DNA from: Podospora anserina
Taxonomy: Eukaryota
DNA: 64,000 nt
Assembly (NCBI GenBank): GCA_017654855.1
Contig: CM030335.1
Location: 1,116,001-1,180,000 of the forward strand
Reading direction: 5' to 3'
A model generated the notes under the pieces. It was not told where the DNA came from. It saw only the letters and a program-made list of their open reading frames with translations, and did not search any database. Position numbers and translations under genes: made by a program. Below, piece after piece: positions 11,208 to 19,300 of this stretch (position 1 is its first letter; each line of letters begins with the position of its first letter).

Positions 11208-12387
11208 AGAATTTCAAGTGCTTGAGCCTTGTGTTTTTATATGGCGTTAAAATTGGGAGGTGGGTGTAAAGGTATATCAATGATCAACTCGAGCGAAACT
11301 AAGGCAGGGGGAAAGTGGAAAGGGAAAAATGAGATGTTGAAAGTGCATGTTTTAACACATGGCGCTGATGAAGGGGGGGTTAATACCACAGGGGTGAAGA
11401 GGTTTTAGAAACCAAAAAAGCTAGCCATAGATGGAATAGATGAAGTTCCTCTCACTTTTGCTCCCAGCAGTGACAGTACTGGTAATGGCTAAAGTTCTTG
11501 TAAACATTCAAGTGCCTTCATTTTAGCTACTGTTTTAAGACTTCACCGAGGTCAAGCACGTCCAAAAACAGTAAATATGATGATCAATATCTCTCATTAT
11601 TCATGTTGTACAACAGGAGTACAAAAACTAAGTATTAAGTCCCTGTTCCTCCTCCCCCACCCACTCTGTCTGTTTTACTGTATGTTATACAACCAACCCC
11701 CTTTCCTCTTTCCTTGTCTCATAAGCCCCCCTTTCGCATTTCCCATTAAACTCCAAATACACCTTATTTTCTGTATGTGCCCGAACCCAAACCCAATTTA
11801 TATCCATCATATAAAATTTTACCCATCTGCTGTTGAAGAAAATAATAAGGTAAAAAGTACAAAAATGATGTAATGTAATATATGTATGATATGCCAAAAA
11901 AACAAAACAAGCAAAACAGAAACAAACGAAAAAAAGAAAAGATGCGAAAATAATCGTACAGAAAAAAAGCAAAAGTAAAAGTACAGAAAAAGAAAAGGGG
12001 ATGATCGGAAAGGTATGTTGTACAAGTGAAATGAAAAGAGTGTAGAAGAAGGAAGCCGCTTTTCTCCATTTCGTCGCCGTCATCTCATGTGTATGTATGC
12101 GATTGTCGTGTCGTGTTTGTGTTGTGAATGCGCAGAAAAACGCCGTAGAAAAAGAAGAGAAACGAATGGATGTCAACCAGCAATGCCATGCCCCTTATCC
12201 CACACAATATATGTCCGGAGCCAGTAAGTATCCTGTAAATGCCATCGCCCACGCCAAATGCTCCCCATCCCATGTAAAAATATGACAAGAAAGAAACCCC
12301 AGAAAGAAAAAGGCGCCATTGAAAACCATTAAGCTCCCTGGCTGGTTGAAAAACAAAAACAAAAAAGAAAAACGTGACGAAAAGGAG

Positions 12388-15300
12388 CTAGAACCACCTC
12401 CTGATAGCAGCACTCTCCTCAATCTTGGTCAACACTCCCATGGCGTCCACATACAGCTTATTCCGACTGCCGACACAGTCACTCTCCATCCGGCGCCTCA
12501 CAAGCCCAACCACGCCCGCCGCCTCGCGATGGGCCCGGAACCTTAAGACGTCCTCCAGACGGCTGCACTCAGCCACCCTGCGCAGCCAGCGGATCGGCTC
12601 ATCATCAGAGCTGTTCAGCGTGGACGCGGTCGACAGCCCGCTCGTTCTCGAGGCAGGACTGCTTCCACCGCTGGGCCCGCCACTGCTGCTTCGTTGCCGG
12701 GGGTGCACTTGCGCTTGTTGCTGCTGCTGGCCCTTGCTGCTGTTCCGCAGACCGTGGTTAAACGCCCAGCAGACGAGCACGCAGACGTGGAGGGCCCAGT
12801 AGTCGGATATATCTGCCACCCTTGACGATGCAGCTGAGCTGCTGCTGCCGCTGTCTTCAGACACATTCCTGCGATTACTGTCCAGAAACCCGAGCAGGGC
12901 ACGCGAGGCAAAGAGGGTGGCTTTGAGAATGTTGAGGCCCGGAAGGCTGCCGCCAGCCCACTGCCTGACTCGCCTGACGTGTTCCTGGAAGATGGTAGCA
13001 GGAAGGACCTTCTGGGCGTAGGCCCAAGAGTCGCCGCTGACGGCCAGGAGATCACGAAGGGGCGTGTGGTTTAGGGCGAGGTAGGTGTTGGCGATGGGGC
13101 AGGTTCGGAAAAGCCGCTGGATGCGCTGCTCGGCTTCCATGTCCTGGGGTTGCTGCTGGAGACGTGCTTGCTGGCTTGAATCAAAGTCCGGGGCGGGAGA
13201 GTTGTCGGCTGAAAGGGCAACTGTGGATGATGACGCCGGCCGTCGAGGCAGACGCAGAGCGCATAGGCCAAGAATGACCATGCGATCTGCCCGGCCGCAA
13301 GCTTCAATGTATTCTGGGGTGAGGCTTTCAATGTCGGAGACGCAAGCTGGCTGGGCGGCAGCGTGGGCAGAGACCGGGTCGCAAGCCTGTAGGGCGTGCC
13401 ACTCCTCTGCCGTGGAGGCTCCCCAAAGCTTCTCACTGTTGCCGAACAACGGGAGGCTTTCATTGCCATCCAGAACGCGCCCATGCTGCTGGTAGATCGA
13501 TGTATGACCATCGCAAATGAAGCAAGCTGCGAGAAGCCGACGGCAGGACTCGGCTTCAACCCAGCGCTTCCACCTCTCGTGGTCGTTGACCAAGTGCTGG
13601 TCCGAACTGAGCATAGCTTGATCGAGCATGCCGGAGTCGGGACAAAGGGCCTGTGTGTCGGAGACAAATTGTGAGTACGCCTGCGCAGAGCTCTGAGAAA
13701 GAGTCGAAAATGAAAGAGAATTCCCCGTCGCCGGTACAGAGTCGTATCGTTCGGGAGAAAAGAGAAAAGACCAGATCCGAGAGATTTCTCGCGAACGAGC
13801 AGGAGAAGGAGAGGTGTTGGAACGAGAATGATGCGTGAAAGAAGAAGGATCCGTGTAGGAGGACCCAGGAGAAACATAAGATGAAGGGACAATGGCCTGT
13901 GGCCATGATGTGTTCGAGAAGGGGCTCAGGTGCCTGAGAACCATGGGAGTGGTGGTGGCAATGGTAGCCGGCGTGATGGAATCAAAGGAAGAGACAGAGG
14001 AAACGGGGGAGGATGTTGGAGACCAGGCGCTGGTGTCGAAGAACCAAGAAACAGAATCCTCCATAAGAGAGAAAGACAGCGGTGCAGTAATGGACTGCTC
14101 AGTACTCACCCTCTGGTGGAGATGCCTGAACAGGTCTGAGGGCTTGGTAACCGGCTTTCGGCCTCGGAAGCGCGCAAAGTACTCGCAGAGAAGAATCGTC
14201 TGCTTGATTTGCAGGCTCCATTTGGCTGCCTGTGTGGTGTTTCCTTGTTAGTTCCAGTGTTGCTGATGATGTGGTAAAGAAATGGGTGCATTTGCACTCA
14301 CTCGCTTCGCCTCTTGCCACGCGTGCTCGTGAAGCTGGTTCCCCCGGTTGCGGTCCTCCTTGGTGTCGAGATGCTGGGTGGCTACGGCTGCCATGGCACA
14401 CCTCAGCACATCTTCCGGCTCGGCTTCAAATGACTGCCGATGCACAATTGGAAGCACAGGGTGTACCTTCTCCCAATAGACATCAAGATAGCCAGGAATA
14501 GCAGTCCTGATGGCGGCCGGAAGGGGGATGTTCATGGACGGTGGCATGGAGGAGTGCATGGCATACTTGCTCCCCAACTCCAAGTTCAACCCTGTTATCT
14601 CGCCACCCGGGCTCACATCACCACTCGCAGCATATCCAACGCTCATATCAGTCATCATGGCGGTTTGGGCACCTAATCGTGTGTCCATAAACCCCTGCTT
14701 CTGACGAAGCATTCCGAGCGAAGGGTCAATGCCAGTGGAAAGGACGGGGGCGGGTGTGATCAAACCGCCACTTGCTTGAGCCGAGGTGCGCGGCTCTGGG
14801 GTGAGGCCTCGAAAGCCGCCGGCCATTGTGTTCCCGTGCATGTTGCTCAGTCCGGAGGCCTGATGGTTGCTGACGTCTTGACCGCTAAAGCCCATAGTAT
14901 TTGGGAAGATTGTTCCGGCCGAATAGGTCTGTGTGCTGTGGGGGTTGGAGGAGTAGGGATTCGGGTGAATGAAACCTCCAAGTCCAGGCCCGGGGCTGAC
15001 TCGAGAAGCCGGATTAGGATATGGGGAGAGAAGGTGGTTTGAGCACCCCCATGGCTGTGCATTTCCCAGTGATTCCGATACCGGTGTCGAATAAGTGCTG
15101 TCCGTGGCCGATGATGCCCAAGGGGACGGTTCCCGGTGCTCGGGCATTTTAATATCCTTTGTTATTACGGACAATTGCCCCATCTGTAATGTCCTGGGCT
15201 GGGAAAACGTCTGTGAGAACCGTGTTGGAGATGGGGTGACTAGAATGGGTGTCGGGGACATTGGGTAGGCCTCGTATTCAGGTGCGGCCCCTCTGTAATC

Positions 15301-16397
15301 TGCGGTTGGATGAGGCGAGCTGGCGGGCTGAGAATATGTTGTTGAAGGCGTCTCAGAAGAGACGGCCGCGGTGGAAAGTGTTTGCCCAGACCCTTGGGCC
15401 GGCACTGATGAGCTGCTCTGTGACCCAGAGATCTGTATTGGCTGTGGTGGTCTTGGTGATGGCACAGCATATGGACTGGCCTGATTAACCGCTGGCTGGG
15501 ATGAGGATTCACCGTGCTCGCTGTAAACATGGTTAATAAAGTAGGCTATTGCCGTTCCAGCTTCTGTACTCACTTCTTCTGCTGATGTCTAGTCAACAGA
15601 TCTTGGCGATGAAATGCCTTGTCACAGCCCGAGCAACGAAATTGAGGCTCTTCATGGCTGAGTTGGTGACGCCTATATCTCAAGTGTCAGCGTATACCGC
15701 TTGCCGATGGCTCAAGTCTTTCTCACCTCAAGTGCTCGGCTCTTGTGAAGGTCTAGTGGTGATTAGTATGAATGCCCTAATGAATAATCAACAGAAGGCG
15801 TCGTACCTTGGCTGGTTTGCAAAGCTCGCAGACATGTACCGGAACGCCCTTCTTCGCTCTGCTCACACGACCAGTGATGGGGGTAAGTCTCATCGGTACT
15901 GCATCAGATGGTTGAGGATGAGGGGGCATAGGTCTCATGGGTCCGCCTCCCATTGATGACGACGAGGCGGGAGATCCGTAGCCTCCTGACCGGTCCATTG
16001 AGTCGGTGCTTGTCGTGCTTCGACGACGGACTGAGGGTCGTGCGGTGGCAGGAGACAAGGTCGTCGATGGGACTGGAGTATCCAGTGATCCGCTTGCCGT
16101 TCCTGGGGGGGCAGTTGGGGTTGTGGTTGATGTTGTCGTCGTTGGCTTGGGACCCCTTGAGGAAGCAGCACGTTTCTTGTTCAGGGTAGAGGGGGAAGGG
16201 GGGTTGATATCCTCTTCGGCGGCCAGACCGGAACTACTAGCATGCCTCGGGTGTGGTAGTGGGTTGGGTTCTTCTGGTAGCTGACCGGTAGTGGCCGGCT
16301 TGATTGGGACCTTGGCCTTTTTATTATTCTGGGCCTGTTGACGGTCCGGCACCTGGTGGTCGTCGTTGACATCCATTATGAACTTGAGACTAGCCAT
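12388..16397 (-). CDS. C2H2 zinc-finger transcription factor with fungal TF middle-homology (Fungal_trans-like) domain; exons 16397-15807, 15752-15727, 15672-15574, 15520-14302, 14229-12388 (candidate optional intron 14109-13651)
   Basis: Spliced fingers CELCKPAKTFTRAEHLRRHQLSH and CSGCDKAFHRQDLLTRH. Domain segments YLDVYWEKVHPVLPIVH, LRCAMAAVATQHL and WKRWVEAESCRRLLAACF. Splice sites are canonical. Confidence 0.88.
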
Positions 16398-19300
16398 GAT
16401 GGGCGGCAGATGCTCAAAATGGATGTCAGATGTGTACCAAGATGGGAATAACACAGCCCTGTTGGACTTTCTTGGACAAATGAAGAAAAGTAACAAAATC
16501 AGGGACGAAGACGGGGACGGGGTACGTCAGTACTGTACACGCGCGGCTGCAGCAATACACGCGAAGAGGCTCAAAAAGAAGACAACAAGAGAAGGAGGGG
16601 AGAAGAACGAGATCGAGGCAAGCCTCAGTCTGCGGGGGATGTGATCAAAGCTACTTAGTGACCTTGGGTAATCATGGCATGTACACGCAGCAACGGGGCC
16701 CATCCGTCGACAACGACAGCCGAAGCATCTGGGGTGCAACTCTGCGGCGTACATTGCGGCACATGTTTTTATTGAGATGGCGACAGGGCCCTCTACCTGC
16801 GTGTGCAGCTAGGGAAAAGTTGGGATGAGATTGTACCGCTCTTGGCCCTCCATTGCAGAAGGGGCTTGGGTGCTCTTTTTGGAGAGGAGGCTGTTGCTTG
16901 AAGGGCCTGCTTGCCCCCTGTTCCCCGTCAGCTCCTTGGCAAGGGTAGGGAGTGAAAGAGGGGGGCGGGGGGGGAGGGGTTGCATTGGCACTTGCTGAGG
17001 GAGGGTGCTGAGATGGTTTTGTCCTGGGAACGAGACTCGACTCGAAGAAAAAAGACAGTTGAGACAAATAATGTACACTTGCACTGGCTTTTCCTCTGAA
17101 ATGTGTATAATCTGAGCCCTTGAAAGAATGAGATGTGGGTGGGAAACAACCAACTACCGTAGGCAGGTAGGGACAACTGAATTTCCAGGTCAGCTTCCAC
17201 AACCCTTCCATGCCAACCCGGGAATAGGAGTGGCCATCTTGGATAGAACGCATGGCCATGGTCCGTGGTCGTGTGCCGCTCCGGGGATCATTGACGACAT
17301 GATGCCAGGGCCATTTCTCAGTTGATTCCGTAGGGCTGCCGGGATACTTGCGATGAGGTGCAGCACAGCGTATGCGGGCATGTTTCGGTAAATTGGGTCT
17401 CCTGTTTACACCCATTTTTTTGTTCATGCCCAGGGAGCACTTTCATATCAAGGAGGGGTAGTATCGCGTGTATTTTGCCCTAGCGGTTTGTTCGTGTACC
17501 CTTTTCTTAACCGCCGGCCTGACTTGTAAAGCGGCGCAGTGTGAGAAGTGCGGAATTTGCTGCAGCAGAGGCAACCATGCCTATTGGCCAGTATCCTCGG
17601 CATACAGTCCCATAGTATGGCCGGCCGAGTTGTCATTTCGCAGACCATACTTGGAGAAGTGCTCGCCCAGTGAGAGCGCCATTCAGAGCTCTTCGAGAGC
17701 AGAAAACGGTGACATACTGACAAGTGACGAGGAGAGGGGTGATGGGGGGTTCCATGGGCAGACTGACGGATAGGGTTGATGTGCATAGGTACATACAGGG
17801 GGCTGAGGCGATGTGATGTTTCCCATTGGCCATACCGGATCTGCAAGGCGTGCTCTCAGTGAGATCCTATTTTTGTTGGTTCCCAATACAGCAAAGCGTC
17901 TTGAGAAAAAAAAGACGTGCATGCAGCCTTTGCAGAATTTGGCCGTAGAGTGGTAACTTGGCGGGATCTGTATGGTTTGCAGTGGGAGCGAGCGTGGGCG
18001 ATGATCAGAGTATTTCAGTGTCTCTATTGCGGGAATAGAACAGTATATTGGGTGCCTGGATGCAACCTTTCAGGCCTGTCGAATCGCTGCTCTCTGATCG
18101 CCATGCATCTCTTCCACCGATGGTAAATTCGGGGGCCGCCCGCCATGGCTATCCGTCTGGGGAATCTCTTGGTTGCGGCACTCAGTCGGCACTAATTAGG
18201 ACCTGGCATGATCAAAATGAATGACCTGCATGTAGCAGTAGCAACACTTGTTGTTTGCTTCGTTTCTCTAAACATGGAGAAGAAAGCGCGTGGGCAATGG
18301 GAGGGCGGGCTGATGGTGTCATTGGTGCCTCCGTCAGTCAGTGTAACGGCAATTGCTAAATAAGCAGCCACGACAAGCGCCTATGATGCATCAACCTGAT
18401 GGCATTGAATACAGTCGATATACAGCCACCATAACGATGATGCTTGTGGGCATATGTAAGGAGGCCGTTGATGGTGTCAACGTTGGTGATAGTAGACAGT
18501 AGTTTGCGCTAGGGGCGCTTAATCTGCCACTGCCGATTCGTCTGATCAGTGGGCAAGTCAAGACCCGGTCACGCCACTCGGGACGGGCCTGATGCTTCTA
18601 GTGTGCAGTTCAGAACTTCAGACTTCGGGTCGCTCGGTGGGTGTGTGTGGTTCACTGCGCAAGTTGCTTCTCGATTAGGTATGGTCCTAGCTCACTGCCG
18701 CGAGGCGGGCGCTTGTTTCAAGTTTGTGATACGCCGCGCTTGTGTGACGAGCGCTTCTGTCTTGAGGAACTGGGCTGTGGCGTCGTACTGAAGCAAGGGG
18801 AATGCAGTATCGGAGGTGTTCCGAGCCCGAGAGGGTGGTGATGCTGCGCATATCTGACGGCATACGTTGAGAAGAAGAGTTGGTTGATCTCGAAGCTTGT
18901 TCGACCTGCGGGAGGTTCCGGTTCATCGCAAACTTCTTCCCTATGGAGGGGTTATTACAAAGTGAGGTGATACTAGGTACCTGCTGATCTTGTTGATGGT
19001 GTCTGATGTCTTGAGAGAAGCCAGTGTACAGATACTTACAAGTTATAATATCCTTTCTGCGATGCATTATGACCTGCTGTTGACTGAGGTGATCGATAAG
19101 ATCGTGGTCCAAACTCTTGGCTTCCAGCAAAACCCCGCTCTCCTTCACAAGGTCCGTGCATTAAAGCTTTCGGCCGGGCGCTTAGCACTATTAATAGCGC
19201 TATGAAGCGATCATTGCAGCTTGGCATCGGCTTTGGCAGCTGCCCAACAGGAGTCCTCCACTCTGAACCTCACCTCCTCACCTCCTCACCTGCACCGTCG

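What the first reader, a model, noticed from the sequence alone, without database searches (positions are those of the whole stretch)
13651..14109. Candidate exitron: 459-nt stop-free in-frame intron inside the transcription factor's regulatory domain
Seen: on the minus strand a perfect GTGAGT donor at 14109 follows ..RHLHQR. A TACTCAC branch-like site (13677-13671) and CAG acceptor (13653-13651) lie 459 nt (153 codons) downstream, and the whole interval is open in frame. It encodes a Ser/Thr/Pro-rich insert wedged between two halves of the Fungal_trans-like domain. A second CAG ending at 13681 is also in frame. The gene's other introns are only 53-72 nt. Inference: two full-length isoforms, with and without a phosphorylatable disordered insert, could act as a splicing switch on TF activity.
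Basis: partly seen in the sequence, partly recalled or inferred. Interest (0 to 1): 0.7.

Follow-up and report, generated by a model that had tools for sequence, protein, structure and literature searches.

The report
Conserved exitron in a fungal transcription factor
A 459-base stretch inside a Podospora transcription-factor gene is both protein-coding sequence and a working intron, so the gene makes two full-length proteins, with or without a 153-residue flexible segment, and related fungi keep this arrangement.

Summary
On the minus strand, 14109-13651 is 459 nt, in frame and stop-free. It has a GTGAGT donor, a TACTCAC branch site and a CAG acceptor.

The gene is Podospora anserina PODANS_4_2750, a C2H2 + Fungal_trans factor orthologous to N. 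crassa NCU03878.

RNA-derived contigs show both forms. Two of four runs carry the 14110^13650 junction. In two other runs, one contig has all four small introns removed but keeps the 459 nt.

All 13 orthologous metagenome loci that span the interval read open in frame. In the window plus 11 distinct loci:
- Lengths run from 327 to 543 nt and are all multiples of three.
- There are no in-frame stops, but there are stops in the other frames.
- dN/dS in close pairs is 0.21-0.27, with an excess of third-position changes.
- The splice signals sit on rare codons kept in 12 of 12: Ser AGT in the donor and Ser TCA in the branch.

The insert is predicted disordered and splits the Fungal_trans domain. 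In spliced orthologue models the domain is contiguous.

Verdict: a real, conserved exitron. A regulatory role is inferred, not shown. It is a new member of a known kind, with no filamentous-fungus report in the searched library.

The parts
12388..16397 (-). Coding region of the C2H2 + Fungal_trans transcription factor (P. anserina PODANS_4_2750; 1258 aa with the insert, 1105 aa without). ATG at 16397-16395, stop at 12390-12388.
   Evidence: ORFs. Exon joins from RNA contigs. Isoform lengths. Identity to P0193 and 99% to P0001. Pfam PF00096 and PF04082 on P0001.
13651..14109 (-). The exitron: 459 nt (153 codons), in frame and stop-free, either spliced out or retained. It encodes a Ser/Thr/Pro-rich disordered insert.
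   Evidence: Junction 'skips 459' in X12 and X13, and retention in X1 and X2. Conservation. pLDDT below 50 over residues 40-209 of the 613-aa model.
14104..14109 (-). 5' splice site GTGAGT, read as Val-Ser when retained.
   Evidence: GTGAGT in 11 of 12 sequences and GTAAGT in 1 of 12. Ser codon AGT in 12 of 12, although AGT makes up 4% of Ser codons inside the inserts.
13671..13677 (-). Branch-site-like TACTCAC. The branch A lies 20 nt from the 3' splice site. Read as Tyr-Ser-(Gln) when retained.
   Evidence: TACTCAC in 10 of 12 and TGCTCAC in 2 of 12, in the same frame, 17-20 nt from the acceptor. Ser codon TCA in 12 of 12 against 8% usage.
13651..13653 (-). 3' splice site CAG, read as Gln when retained.
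   Evidence: CAG in 12 of 12.
13681..13683 (-). No use of it was seen.
   Evidence: No such joint in the 4 runs. It lies upstream of the conserved branch site.
14110..14229 (-). Exon 5 (40 codons), ending ..RHLHQR. It is the helix before the insert.
   Evidence: helix 32-42 of the model.
14230..14301 (-). Intron 4 (72 nt), constitutive in the 4 runs. Used here as the ordinary-intron control.
   Evidence: joint in 4 of 4 runs. (stops in most frames, and gaps that are not multiples of three between close relatives).
12388..13650 (-). Exon 6, the rest of the Fungal_trans-like regulatory domain and the C-terminus.
14302..15520 (-). Exon 4. A long Ser/Thr/Pro-rich linker, then the start of the Fungal_trans domain.
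15521..15573 (-). Intron 3 (53 nt).
15574..15672 (-). Exon 3 (second C2H2 finger).
15673..15726 (-). Intron 2 (54 nt).
15727..15752 (-). Exon 2 (26 nt).
15753..15806 (-). Intron 1 (54 nt).
15807..16397 (-). Exon 1 (N-terminus and start of the first C2H2 finger).

Best explanation
The interval 14109-13651 (minus strand) is an exitron, a protein-coding segment that also works as an alternatively used spliceosomal intron.

Shown:
- The gene yields two processed mRNAs that differ only by these 459 nt. Both keep the reading frame, giving a 1258-aa and a 1105-aa form of a C2H2 + Fungal_trans transcription factor.
- The arrangement is conserved in related Sordariomycetes under two constraints at once. 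One keeps the insert translatable and preserves its protein sequence. The other fixes the donor, branch and acceptor nucleotides at otherwise rare synonymous codons (Val-Ser = GTGAGT, Tyr-Ser-Gln = TACTCACA, Gln = CAG).

Inferred:
- Both mRNAs are translated.
- The 153-residue disordered, [ST]P-rich insert sits in a loop between two helices of the regulatory (middle-homology) domain. Its presence or absence changes how the factor is regulated, for example through phosphorylation, partner binding or stability. The retained:spliced ratio would then act as a post-transcriptional setting of the factor's activity.
- The unusual length for this fungus (459 nt against 53-72 nt for its neighbours) and the non-consensus branch site probably make recognition inefficient. 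That would leave the splicing choice open to regulation.
For: RNA
- All four runs are spliced RNA: the four small introns are removed in each.
- X1 (one 5037-nt contig, depth 86) and X2 (4882 nt, depth 29) run unbroken across 11800-14228. They keep the 459 nt while every other intron is removed.
- X13 has a 2016-nt contig (depth 21.7) joining 13650 to 14110, with 121 nt on the shorter side. X12 has the same joint (28 nt side, depth 6.1).
- X12 also has an unspliced contig across the acceptor (13622-13997, depth 4.6). X13 has a piece inside the insert (13803-13986, depth 4.8).
- The four runs come from four studies.

Other species
- Of 54 full-length annotated orthologues, 29 read through a 150-270-aa insert and 21 skip it. 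All 29 inserts begin (R/K)-V-S.
- Close relatives are modelled both ways: Madurella mycetomatis retained against M. fahalii spliced.
- Two Logan contigs (4061 nt holding 1131 aa; 2802 nt holding 853 aa) are too compact to contain introns. Both carry the spliced form.

Orthologous genomic DNA
- The loci were found through exon-6 peptide patterns, so retrieval did not depend on the insert.
- 13 of 13 loci that span the interval are open in frame.
- After dropping two duplicates, the window and 11 loci have lengths 459, 507, 525, 543, 519, 504, 519, 480, 483, 471, 327 and 525, all multiples of three. They have 0 stops in frame, 1-3 in frame +1 and 0-7 in frame +2. The chance of being stop-free by shuffling is 0.015-0.055 each.

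Coding-type evolution
- dN/dS in L007/L008 is 0.27 (exon 6: 0.14). In L004/L013 it is 0.21 (exon 6: 0.20).
- Differences by codon position are 11/7/22 and 15/11/36. Pooled chi-square p = 2e-6.
- Gaps between close pairs are 6 nt (L004/L013) or 6+2+1 nt (L007/L008) in the insert. In the much shorter intron 4 they are 1-2 nt (L004/L013) and 2, 1, 9, 3, 2 nt (L007/L008).

Splice-signal constraint
- Ser AGT (4% usage) and Ser TCA (8% usage) are each kept in 12 of 12. Val is GTG or GTA in 12 of 12, against 21% usage.

Exitron-like composition
- Insert GC is 0.52, between the gene's exons (0.57-0.62) and its introns (0.41-0.45).
- Synonymous sites are T-enriched: TCT is 41% of Ser codons in the inserts against 14% in exon 6.

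Placement
- The Pfam Fungal_trans match is contiguous (profile 1-203 and 2-172) in spliced models P0017 and P0040. In retained models P0001 and P0006 the best-scoring stretch stops at profile position 109-110.
- The AlphaFold2 model gives pLDDT of about 27-32 over the insert, between confident helices.
Against: - The RNA evidence is assembled contigs, not reads. No percent-spliced-in value can be given, rare forms are dropped, and the run type is only a guess by the tool. The intron-free contigs do show that the material is spliced RNA.
- The junction was seen in 2 of 4 runs only.
- Nothing shows that either isoform is translated. The retained mRNA could in principle be held in the nucleus.
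- dN/dS in the insert is higher than in exon 6 in one of the two close pairs, and alignments among distant pairs are loose.
- The loci are phylogenetically related, so 12 of 12 is fewer than 12 independent trials.
- The metagenome loci carry no names, so their taxonomic spread is judged only from similarity.
- For species whose gene models skip the interval (for example N. crassa), I had no DNA to check whether it is open.
- The structure model rests on a shallow 16-row alignment (mean pLDDT 58).
- No condition-dependence was shown, and no phosphorylation data exist.
Confidence: 0.85

Rival explanations
1. It is a plain coding exon. The 14110^13650 junction is splicing noise at a chance GTGAGT...CAG pair and has no function.
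For: Annotators of P. anserina and five sibling species model the interval as exon. In X1 and X2 only the retained form was assembled. A single strong donor hexamer in a long exon is not improbable.
Against: The donor, branch and acceptor are fixed in 12 of 12 sequences at rare synonymous codons: AGT at 4%, TCA at 8% and GTG/GTA at 21% usage. In X13 the assembler's main path from the 3' exon is the spliced one (depth 21.7, against 4.8 for the insert piece), and in X12 the two branches have similar depth. Compact RNA-like contigs of two other species carry the spliced form.
Confidence: 0.04
2. It is an ordinary, inefficiently spliced long intron. The retained RNA is unproductive, and the open frame is a by-product of A-poor composition.
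For: The composition is T/C-rich and A-poor, so stops are rare. Shuffles are stop-free in 1.4-5.5% of trials, and one locus (L004) has no stops in frame +2 either. Twenty-one of 54 gene models treat it as an intron. Intron retention is the commonest alternative event in fungi (PMC9801653, passages seen).
Against: Lengths are multiples of three in 12 of 12 despite 10 different lengths, with 0 in-frame stops in 12 of 12. dN/dS is 0.21-0.27 with a third-position excess, p = 2e-6. Protein motifs stay in register along the whole insert. The neighbouring true intron 4 shows stops and frame-breaking gaps in the same pairs.
Confidence: 0.03
3. The frame is kept only to protect a retained (detained) transcript from nonsense-mediated decay. 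The retained RNA is a reservoir that is spliced later, the spliced protein is the only working product, and the insert peptide does not matter.
For: Retained, otherwise fully spliced RNA is abundant in X1 and X2. The insert is disordered. Its dN/dS is somewhat higher than exon 6 in one pair. Its synonymous sites are intron-like and T-rich.
Against: Selection only against stops and frameshifts would not give dN/dS of 0.2-0.3, nor conserved motifs across genera such as LW.VDT.AWSP, TPT and SWSSLF(A/S)P.RY.
Confidence: 0.07
4. The junction is a reverse-transcription or assembly artefact (template switching between short repeats).
For: Some published exitrons have been shown to be such artefacts (PMC8240250; title and start of abstract seen). 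Only contigs were available here.
Against: The joint is exactly GT..AG, with only 2 nt of ambiguity. It occurs in two studies. It coincides with a conserved donor, branch and acceptor. The same joint is found in gene models and RNA-like contigs of other species.
Confidence: 0.01

Closest known systems
Exitrons (exonic introns) of Arabidopsis and human, EIx3 subclass (Marquez et al. 2015, PMC4484396; abstract and passages read)
   Same: It lies inside an annotated coding exon, has canonical splice sites and is alternatively spliced. It has no stops and a length that is a multiple of three. Synonymous substitutions prevail. GC is below that of the exons and above that of the introns. It encodes a disordered region rich in potential modification sites, and the retained form can be the major mRNA.
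   Different: It is in a filamentous ascomycete. My searches found no paper combining 'exitron' with 'filamentous fung' (0 papers), and none of the 15 listed of 24 papers for 'exitron' + 'fungi' concerned a fungal exitron by title or abstract start. It is far longer than the host's usual introns. The donor, branch and acceptor are each visibly fixed as specific codons across many genera.
Translated retained introns of budding yeasts: PTC7 and NUP116/NUP100 (Hurtig et al. 2020, PMC7491326, passages read; Juneau et al. 2009 as cited there)
   Same: A fungal intron whose length is a multiple of three and which lacks stops in every species with retention. It is conserved over long times, and both mRNAs encode a protein, so one gene gives two isoforms.
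   Different: The PTC7 intron encodes a transmembrane helix that changes localisation. Here the insert is a disordered segment inside a transcription-factor regulatory domain, in a different fungal subphylum. No functional difference between the isoforms has been shown.
Exitron-type splicing that removes intrinsically disordered regions in vertebrates, such as TARDBP (bioRxiv 10.64898/2026.10.06.756961; title and start of abstract seen)
   Same: A donor embedded in sequence coding for a disordered region, so the same letters serve the protein and splicing. Splicing removes the disordered region.
   Different: The organism and protein are unrelated. Here the amino-acid motifs of the insert are also conserved, not only the splicing capacity.
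Ordinary intron retention in fungi (described for P. anserina in Lelandais et al. 2022, PMC9801653; passages read)
   Same: The event would be scored as intron retention by a standard pipeline if the interval were annotated as an intron.
   Different: The retained sequence is under coding constraint and keeps the frame. That paper's main text does not mention this gene, and its table of events is a supplement I could not open.

Membership tests
Exitron (Marquez et al. 2015) | Lies within an annotated protein-coding exon, flanked by coding sequence on both sides | tested here: met
   The deposited P. anserina protein P0193 (PODANS_4_2750) and the models of five sibling species read straight through the interval. 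So do 29 of 54 orthologue models.
Exitron (Marquez et al. 2015) | Canonical splice signals, and actually spliced out in part of the transcripts | tested here: met
   A GT..AG joint skipping exactly 459 nt in contigs of 2 of 4 runs (X12, X13), and retained in X1 and X2.
Exitron (Marquez et al. 2015) | No stop codon; for the EIx3 subclass, a length that is a multiple of three, so that splicing gives an internally deleted protein | tested here: met
   459 nt with 0 in-frame stops. Isoforms of 1258 and 1105 aa share one C-terminus. The same holds in 11 of 11 distinct orthologous loci.
Exitron (Marquez et al. 2015) | Evolves as coding sequence (synonymous changes prevail), unlike retained introns | tested here: met
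   dN/dS of 0.27 and 0.21 in two close pairs. Codon-position differences of 26/18/58 pooled, p = 2e-6. Contrast with intron 4.
Exitron (Marquez et al. 2015) | GC content lower than exons and higher than introns | tested here: met
   Insert 0.52, exons 0.57 and 0.62, introns 0.41 and 0.45, from this one gene only.
Exitron (Marquez et al. 2015) | The retained form is a mature, exported and translated mRNA; both proteins exist | not testable with these tools
   Retained contigs have every other intron removed. Export, translation and the proteins themselves were not observable.
Regulated alternative splicing switch | The isoform ratio changes with condition or developmental stage | tested here: inconclusive
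   The assembled form differs between runs of four studies. Contig depth is not a ratio, and the conditions are unknown.
C2H2 + Fungal_trans (PF00096 + PF04082) transcription factors | Both Pfam domains above their gathering scores | tested here: met
   P0001 (99% identical to the window over the part compared) scores 42.0 bits on PF04082 (cut-off 23) and 27.2 bits on PF00096 (cut-off 25.2). The window's own separate exon pieces score 22.5 and 15 bits, below the cut-off, because the domain is split.
S. cerevisiae Tda9/Rsf2 or S. pombe Zas1 orthologue (names given by automatic annotation of relatives) | Orthology shown by a tree or reciprocal best hits | not tested
   Only source-given names were seen. 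No yeast sequence was compared.
Ordinary constitutive spliceosomal intron | Always removed; no constraint on frame, stops or encoded peptide | tested here: not met
   Retained in processed RNA. Frame, openness and peptide are conserved.

The most novel reading that the evidence does not exclude
This is an ancient, class-wide (Sordariales and Diaporthales, with a shorter form in Xylariales) dual-coded exitron. The spliceosome's donor, branch and acceptor are written as conserved Val-Ser, Tyr-Ser-Gln and Gln codons. Regulated splicing inserts or removes a phospho-regulatable disordered loop in the middle-homology domain of a so far uncharacterised transcription factor. Under this reading it is a post-transcriptional on/off or tuning switch for a fungal regulator, and a first worked example of exitron biology in filamentous fungi.
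Probability: 0.45. Interest if true: 0.75.

Novelty: new member of a known kind. Interest (0 to 1): 0.62.

Why it matters
Alternative splicing that diversifies proteins is thought to be rare in fungi, where most events are unproductive intron retention. The few conserved cases known, such as SKI7/HBS1, PTC7 and NUP116/100, come mainly from yeasts.

Here one gene of a genetic model fungus offers a clean, testable case. The two isoforms differ by a single 153-residue disordered segment inside the regulatory domain of a transcription factor. Comparative data show that selection acts on both the peptide and the splice signals.

It also matters for annotation. Gene models of close relatives disagree (29 retained against 21 spliced of 54), and both may be right.

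The case could be used to study two questions. One is how a fungal spliceosome, tuned to introns of about 50-70 nt, handles a 459-nt coding intron. The other is what the Fungal_trans loop does. The factor itself (NCU03878 in Neurospora) is essentially unstudied: one paper in the library mentions it, in a table.

Tried and rejected
- **RNA holders.** The look-up of sequencing runs listed no holder on record as RNA. All were 'RNA? (a guess)' or '?'. Only four runs could be laid, once, and as contigs, so there are no read counts, no strand and no isoform ratio.
- **Second acceptor.** The in-frame acceptor at 13681 has no joint in the four runs. It lies upstream of the conserved branch site, so I dropped it.
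- **MoCDTF1.** I considered M. oryzae MoCDTF1 as a possible orthologue. It has a C-terminal zinc finger and one 62-nt intron (PMC3228794, passages read), so it is not the same gene.
- **Podospora re-annotation paper.** I looked for this gene in PMC9801653. The main text has no mention. Its Table S2 of splicing events is a supplement and was closed, so it may already list this event.
- **Literature searches.** 'exitron' + 'fungi' gave 24 papers; none of the 15 listed was about a fungal exitron by title or abstract start. The six-term search was badly designed and uninformative. 'exitron' + 'filamentous fung' gave 0 papers. The five-term search on in-frame intron retention in Sordariomycetes gave 0 papers.
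- **M-started ORF fragments.** Logan-derived ORF fragments that begin with Met just after the insert (for example P0058, P0060, P0208) cannot show whether the insert is closed in those species, because such calls start at a Met. I did not use them.
- **Intron 4 boundaries.** In one search the ends of intron 4 were set by a crude rule. It gave 76 nt for the window where RNA shows 72, so those lengths are approximate. Only the stops and the gap pattern are used.
- **Script sub-count.** In one search the script reported 0 '(R/K)VS' starts in the short class, although P0033 visibly reads SRVSTLRS. I do not use that figure.
- **Own genome and complex prediction.** The window's whole genome was not requested and complex prediction was not used. 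No codon-usage table for the genome was made, so codon comparisons are within this gene family only.
Full report
**1. The observation**

Reading the minus strand confirms every stated coordinate.
- GTGAGT is at 14109-14104, directly after the codons for ..RHLHQR.
- TACTCAC is at 13677-13671 and CAG at 13653-13651.
- A further in-frame CAG ends at 13681.

The interval is 459 nt (153 codons). It has no stop in frame and two stops in each other frame.

Its composition is A 0.16, C 0.35, G 0.17, T 0.32. Its GC of 0.52 lies between the flanking exons (0.57 and 0.62) and two of the gene's introns (0.41 and 0.45).

Because the stretch is A-poor, openness alone is weak evidence: 1.4% of 20,000 shuffles are stop-free. 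The peptide is 47% Ser+Thr+Pro with nine [ST]P sites.

**2. The gene**

The locus is a six-exon gene on the minus strand, running from the ATG at 16397 to the stop at 12390-12388.
- The deposited P. anserina S mat+ protein PODANS_4_2750 (P0193, an N-terminally short 895-aa model) matches the window's translation by eye over the stretch around the insert.
- The 1261-aa models of sibling species are 99% identical over the part compared.
- Pfam finds zf-C2H2 and Fungal_trans above threshold on P0001.
- The N. crassa orthologue is NCU03878. The paper library mentions it once, in a table of C2H2 genes.
- Names such as 'TDA9' or 'zas1' on relatives are automatic annotations and were not tested.

**3. 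RNA**

Twenty runs of one organism hold the stretch. I laid four, from four studies, as Logan contigs. All four have the small introns removed (72, 53, 54 and 54 nt), so they derive from spliced RNA.

In X1 one 5037-nt contig (depth 86) runs unbroken from 11800 to 14228. In X2 a 4882-nt contig (depth 29) does the same. Both keep the 459 nt while all four other introns are gone.

In X13 a 2016-nt contig (depth 21.7) joins 13650 directly to 14110, with 121 nt on the shorter side. X12 has the same joint (28 nt side, depth 6.1).

X12 also has an unspliced contig across the acceptor (13622-13997, depth 4.6). X13 has a piece inside the insert (13803-13986, depth 4.8).

So both forms exist as processed RNA, and which one dominates the assembly differs between studies. 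No joint uses the CAG at 13681. Contigs give no ratios, and rare forms are dropped.

**4. Annotated orthologues**

I examined 54 full-length relatives of at least 1074 aa, aligned and classed. The distance between the conserved ..RFRG and ..RRLL anchors is bimodal.
- 29 carry an insert (150 residues or more between the anchors). All begin (R/K)-V-S, and those I read end in Q before (V/A)LY.
- 21 lack it, reading for example SR|VLYHNP.
- 4 Xylariales models carry a shorter insert.

Close relatives are modelled both ways. Madurella mycetomatis is retained and M. fahalii spliced. Diaporthe helianthi is retained and D. amygdali spliced.

Two proteins come from Logan contigs too compact to hold introns, and both carry the spliced form. 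P0044 is 1131 aa on 4061 nt. P0059 is 853 aa on 2802 nt.

Gene models are biased, because a predictor keeps an interval as exon only if it is open. I therefore looked for unannotated DNA.

**5. Orthologous genomic DNA**

A scan of metagenome contigs used two exon-6 peptide patterns, so it was blind to the insert. It returned 19 loci.
- Thirteen span the interval, and all 13 read open and in frame from exon 5 to exon 6.
- L010 duplicates L006 and L012 duplicates L005, so I dropped both.
- L014-L017 and L019 do not span the interval (L016 covers only its 3' end).
- L018 is a distant relative (30% identity) without the long insert.

In the window plus the 11 distinct loci:
- Lengths are 459, 507, 525, 543, 519, 504, 519, 480, 483, 471, 327 and 525 nt. 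That is ten different values, all multiples of three.
- In-frame stops are 0 in 12 of 12. Frame +1 has 1-3 stops and frame +2 has 0-7.
- The donor is G|GTGAGT in 11 and GTAAGT in 1.
- TACTCAC (10) or TGCTCAC (2) lies 17-20 nt from the acceptor. The acceptor is CAG in 12.
- Shuffles of each insert are stop-free in 1.5-5.5% of trials.

L002 and L003 differ by an in-frame 18-nt tandem duplication.

**6. Two layers of selection**

*The peptide.* In the two closest pairs, Nei-Gojobori dN/dS in the insert is 0.27 (L007/L008; exon 6: 0.14) and 0.21 (L004/L013; exon 6: 0.20). Differences by codon position are 11/7/22 and 15/11/36, pooled chi-square p = 2e-6.

Gaps between these pairs are 6 nt in one and 6+2+1 nt in the other, over about 500 nt of insert. 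In the 75-100-nt intron 4 of the same pairs the gaps are 1, 1, 1, 1, 2, 1 nt and 2, 1, 9, 3, 2 nt. Intron 4 also has stops in most frames in every locus (its ends were set approximately).

Motifs stay in register across genera: LW.VDT.AWSP.SSP, S.TPT, LRHLS, SWSSLF(A/S)P.RY and YSQ.

*The splice signals.* These sit on codons that are otherwise rare.

| Position | Codon kept | Kept in | Usual share of that codon |
|---|---|---|---|
| Ser after the donor G | AGT | 12 of 12 | 4% of Ser codons inside the inserts |
| Ser inside the branch site | TCA | 12 of 12 | 8% |
| Donor Val | GTG or GTA | 12 of 12 | 21% |

The conserved 'Val-Ser', 'Tyr-Ser-Gln' and final 'Gln' are therefore the donor, branch and acceptor read as protein.

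Synonymous sites in the insert are also T-enriched: TCT is 41% of Ser codons against 14% in exon 6, and GTT is 53% of Val codons against 21%. This gives the insert an intron-like tint.

The sequences are related, so 12 of 12 is not twelve independent trials. The ten different lengths still imply many separate indel events that all kept the frame.

**7. Place in the protein**

In spliced models the Fungal_trans profile matches in one piece: P0017 on profile 1-203 and P0040 on 2-172. In retained models the best-scoring stretch ends at profile position 109-110, at about residue 672, some 15 residues before the insert begins.

The window's own pieces match profile 1-59 before the insert and 126-203 after it.

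An AlphaFold2 model of exon 5 + insert + exon 6 was built from a 16-row alignment (mean pLDDT 58). It gives pLDDT of about 27-32 over residues 40-209, between a helix at 32-42 and helices from 199 on. The insert is therefore a long disordered loop between two helices of the regulatory domain.

**8. Explanation and rivals**

The best reading (0.85) is an exitron. One pre-mRNA gives two in-frame mRNAs and, by inference, two proteins of 1258 and 1105 aa.

| Rival reading | Main objection |
|---|---|
| Splicing noise in a plain exon | Synonymous-site conservation of the signals, and the spliced path dominating in X13 |
| Ordinary leaky intron, open by chance | Frame, stop and dN/dS data |
| Frame kept only to avoid NMD of a detained RNA | Peptide-level constraint, though this is not excluded |
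| Reverse-transcription artefact | An exact GT..AG joint at conserved signals, seen in two studies and in other species |

What the insert does is inference. The [ST]P and RxxS-like motifs suggest phosphorylation, and the loop position suggests modulation of the regulatory domain.

**9. Comparison with what is known**

The feature meets the tested criteria that Marquez et al. (2015) use to separate exitrons from retained introns (passages read):
- it lies inside an annotated coding exon;
- it has no stops;
- its length is a multiple of three;
- synonymous substitutions prevail;
- its GC is intermediate between exons and introns;
- it encodes disordered, modification-rich sequence;
- the retained form can be the major mRNA.

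Within fungi the nearest precedents are the translated retained introns of PTC7 and NUP116/NUP100 in budding yeasts. Those are also multiples of three and stop-free wherever they are retained (PMC7491326, passages read).

I found no report of an exitron in a filamentous fungus in the searched library. The term is used for plants, human, Drosophila and Plasmodium in the listing.

I therefore rate this a new member of a known kind.

**10. Limits**
- No read-level quantification, no knowledge of conditions and no protein evidence.
- No DNA for species with spliced-only models.
- The metagenome loci are unnamed.
- The structure model is shallow.

Noticed in passing
window 16105: All four RNA runs read T where the window has G on the + strand. 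On the coding strand this turns codon 98 from CCA (Pro) into CAA (Gln). It is either a strain difference or an assembly error in a C-run. Relatives such as P0001 have Pro here.
   Followed up: partly
window 14302-16397 against protein P0193: The deposited P. anserina S mat+ model PODANS_4_2750 (895 aa) starts inside exon 4 and lacks the zinc fingers. RNA contigs with introns 1-3 spliced support the long model (1258 or 1105 aa), as annotated in the sibling species.
   Followed up: partly
window 11800-12387 and 16398-16900: The X1 contig covers the whole laid stretch and runs about 85 nt beyond each end. The transcript, or overlapping neighbours, would therefore carry at least 500 nt upstream of the ATG and at least 590 nt downstream of the stop. 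The 3' part is T-rich and low in complexity, and reads appear cut at a repeat at 12345-12377.
   Followed up: no
L002 and L003, start of the insert: Two otherwise near-identical metagenome loci differ by an in-frame 18-nt tandem duplication (SSSLPL repeated) inside the insert. This is a length polymorphism that keeps the frame.
   Followed up: partly
proteins P0068/P0209 (Neurospora tetrasperma), P0037, P0061 (Lasiosphaeria ovina): These gene models use an acceptor 17-18 codons upstream of the usual one and keep ..(Q)LEVSEQTYLQGA.NPQ before VLY. N. crassa P0040 uses the usual acceptor. Alternative 3' splice sites may exist in some lineages.
   Followed up: no
proteins P0038, P0046, P0048, P0053 against P0049, P0052 against P0043, P0047 (Xylariales): At the same site, Xylariales models show a shorter insert of about 45-50 residues that also begins R-V-S. 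Models appear in three nested forms (full, partly removed, fully removed), suggesting a related but smaller alternatively modelled intron.
   Followed up: no
inserts of the window and L001-L013: Synonymous codon choice inside the insert is strongly T-ending compared with exon 6 of the same genes: TCT is 41% against 14% of Ser codons, and GTT is 53% against 21% of Val codons.
   Followed up: partly
protein P0001 (P. pseudoanserina), insert end: The sibling species reads AYLQ where the window reads AYSQ, so the branch-site codons would differ by one base. Whether splicing efficiency differs between the sibling species is unknown.
   Followed up: no
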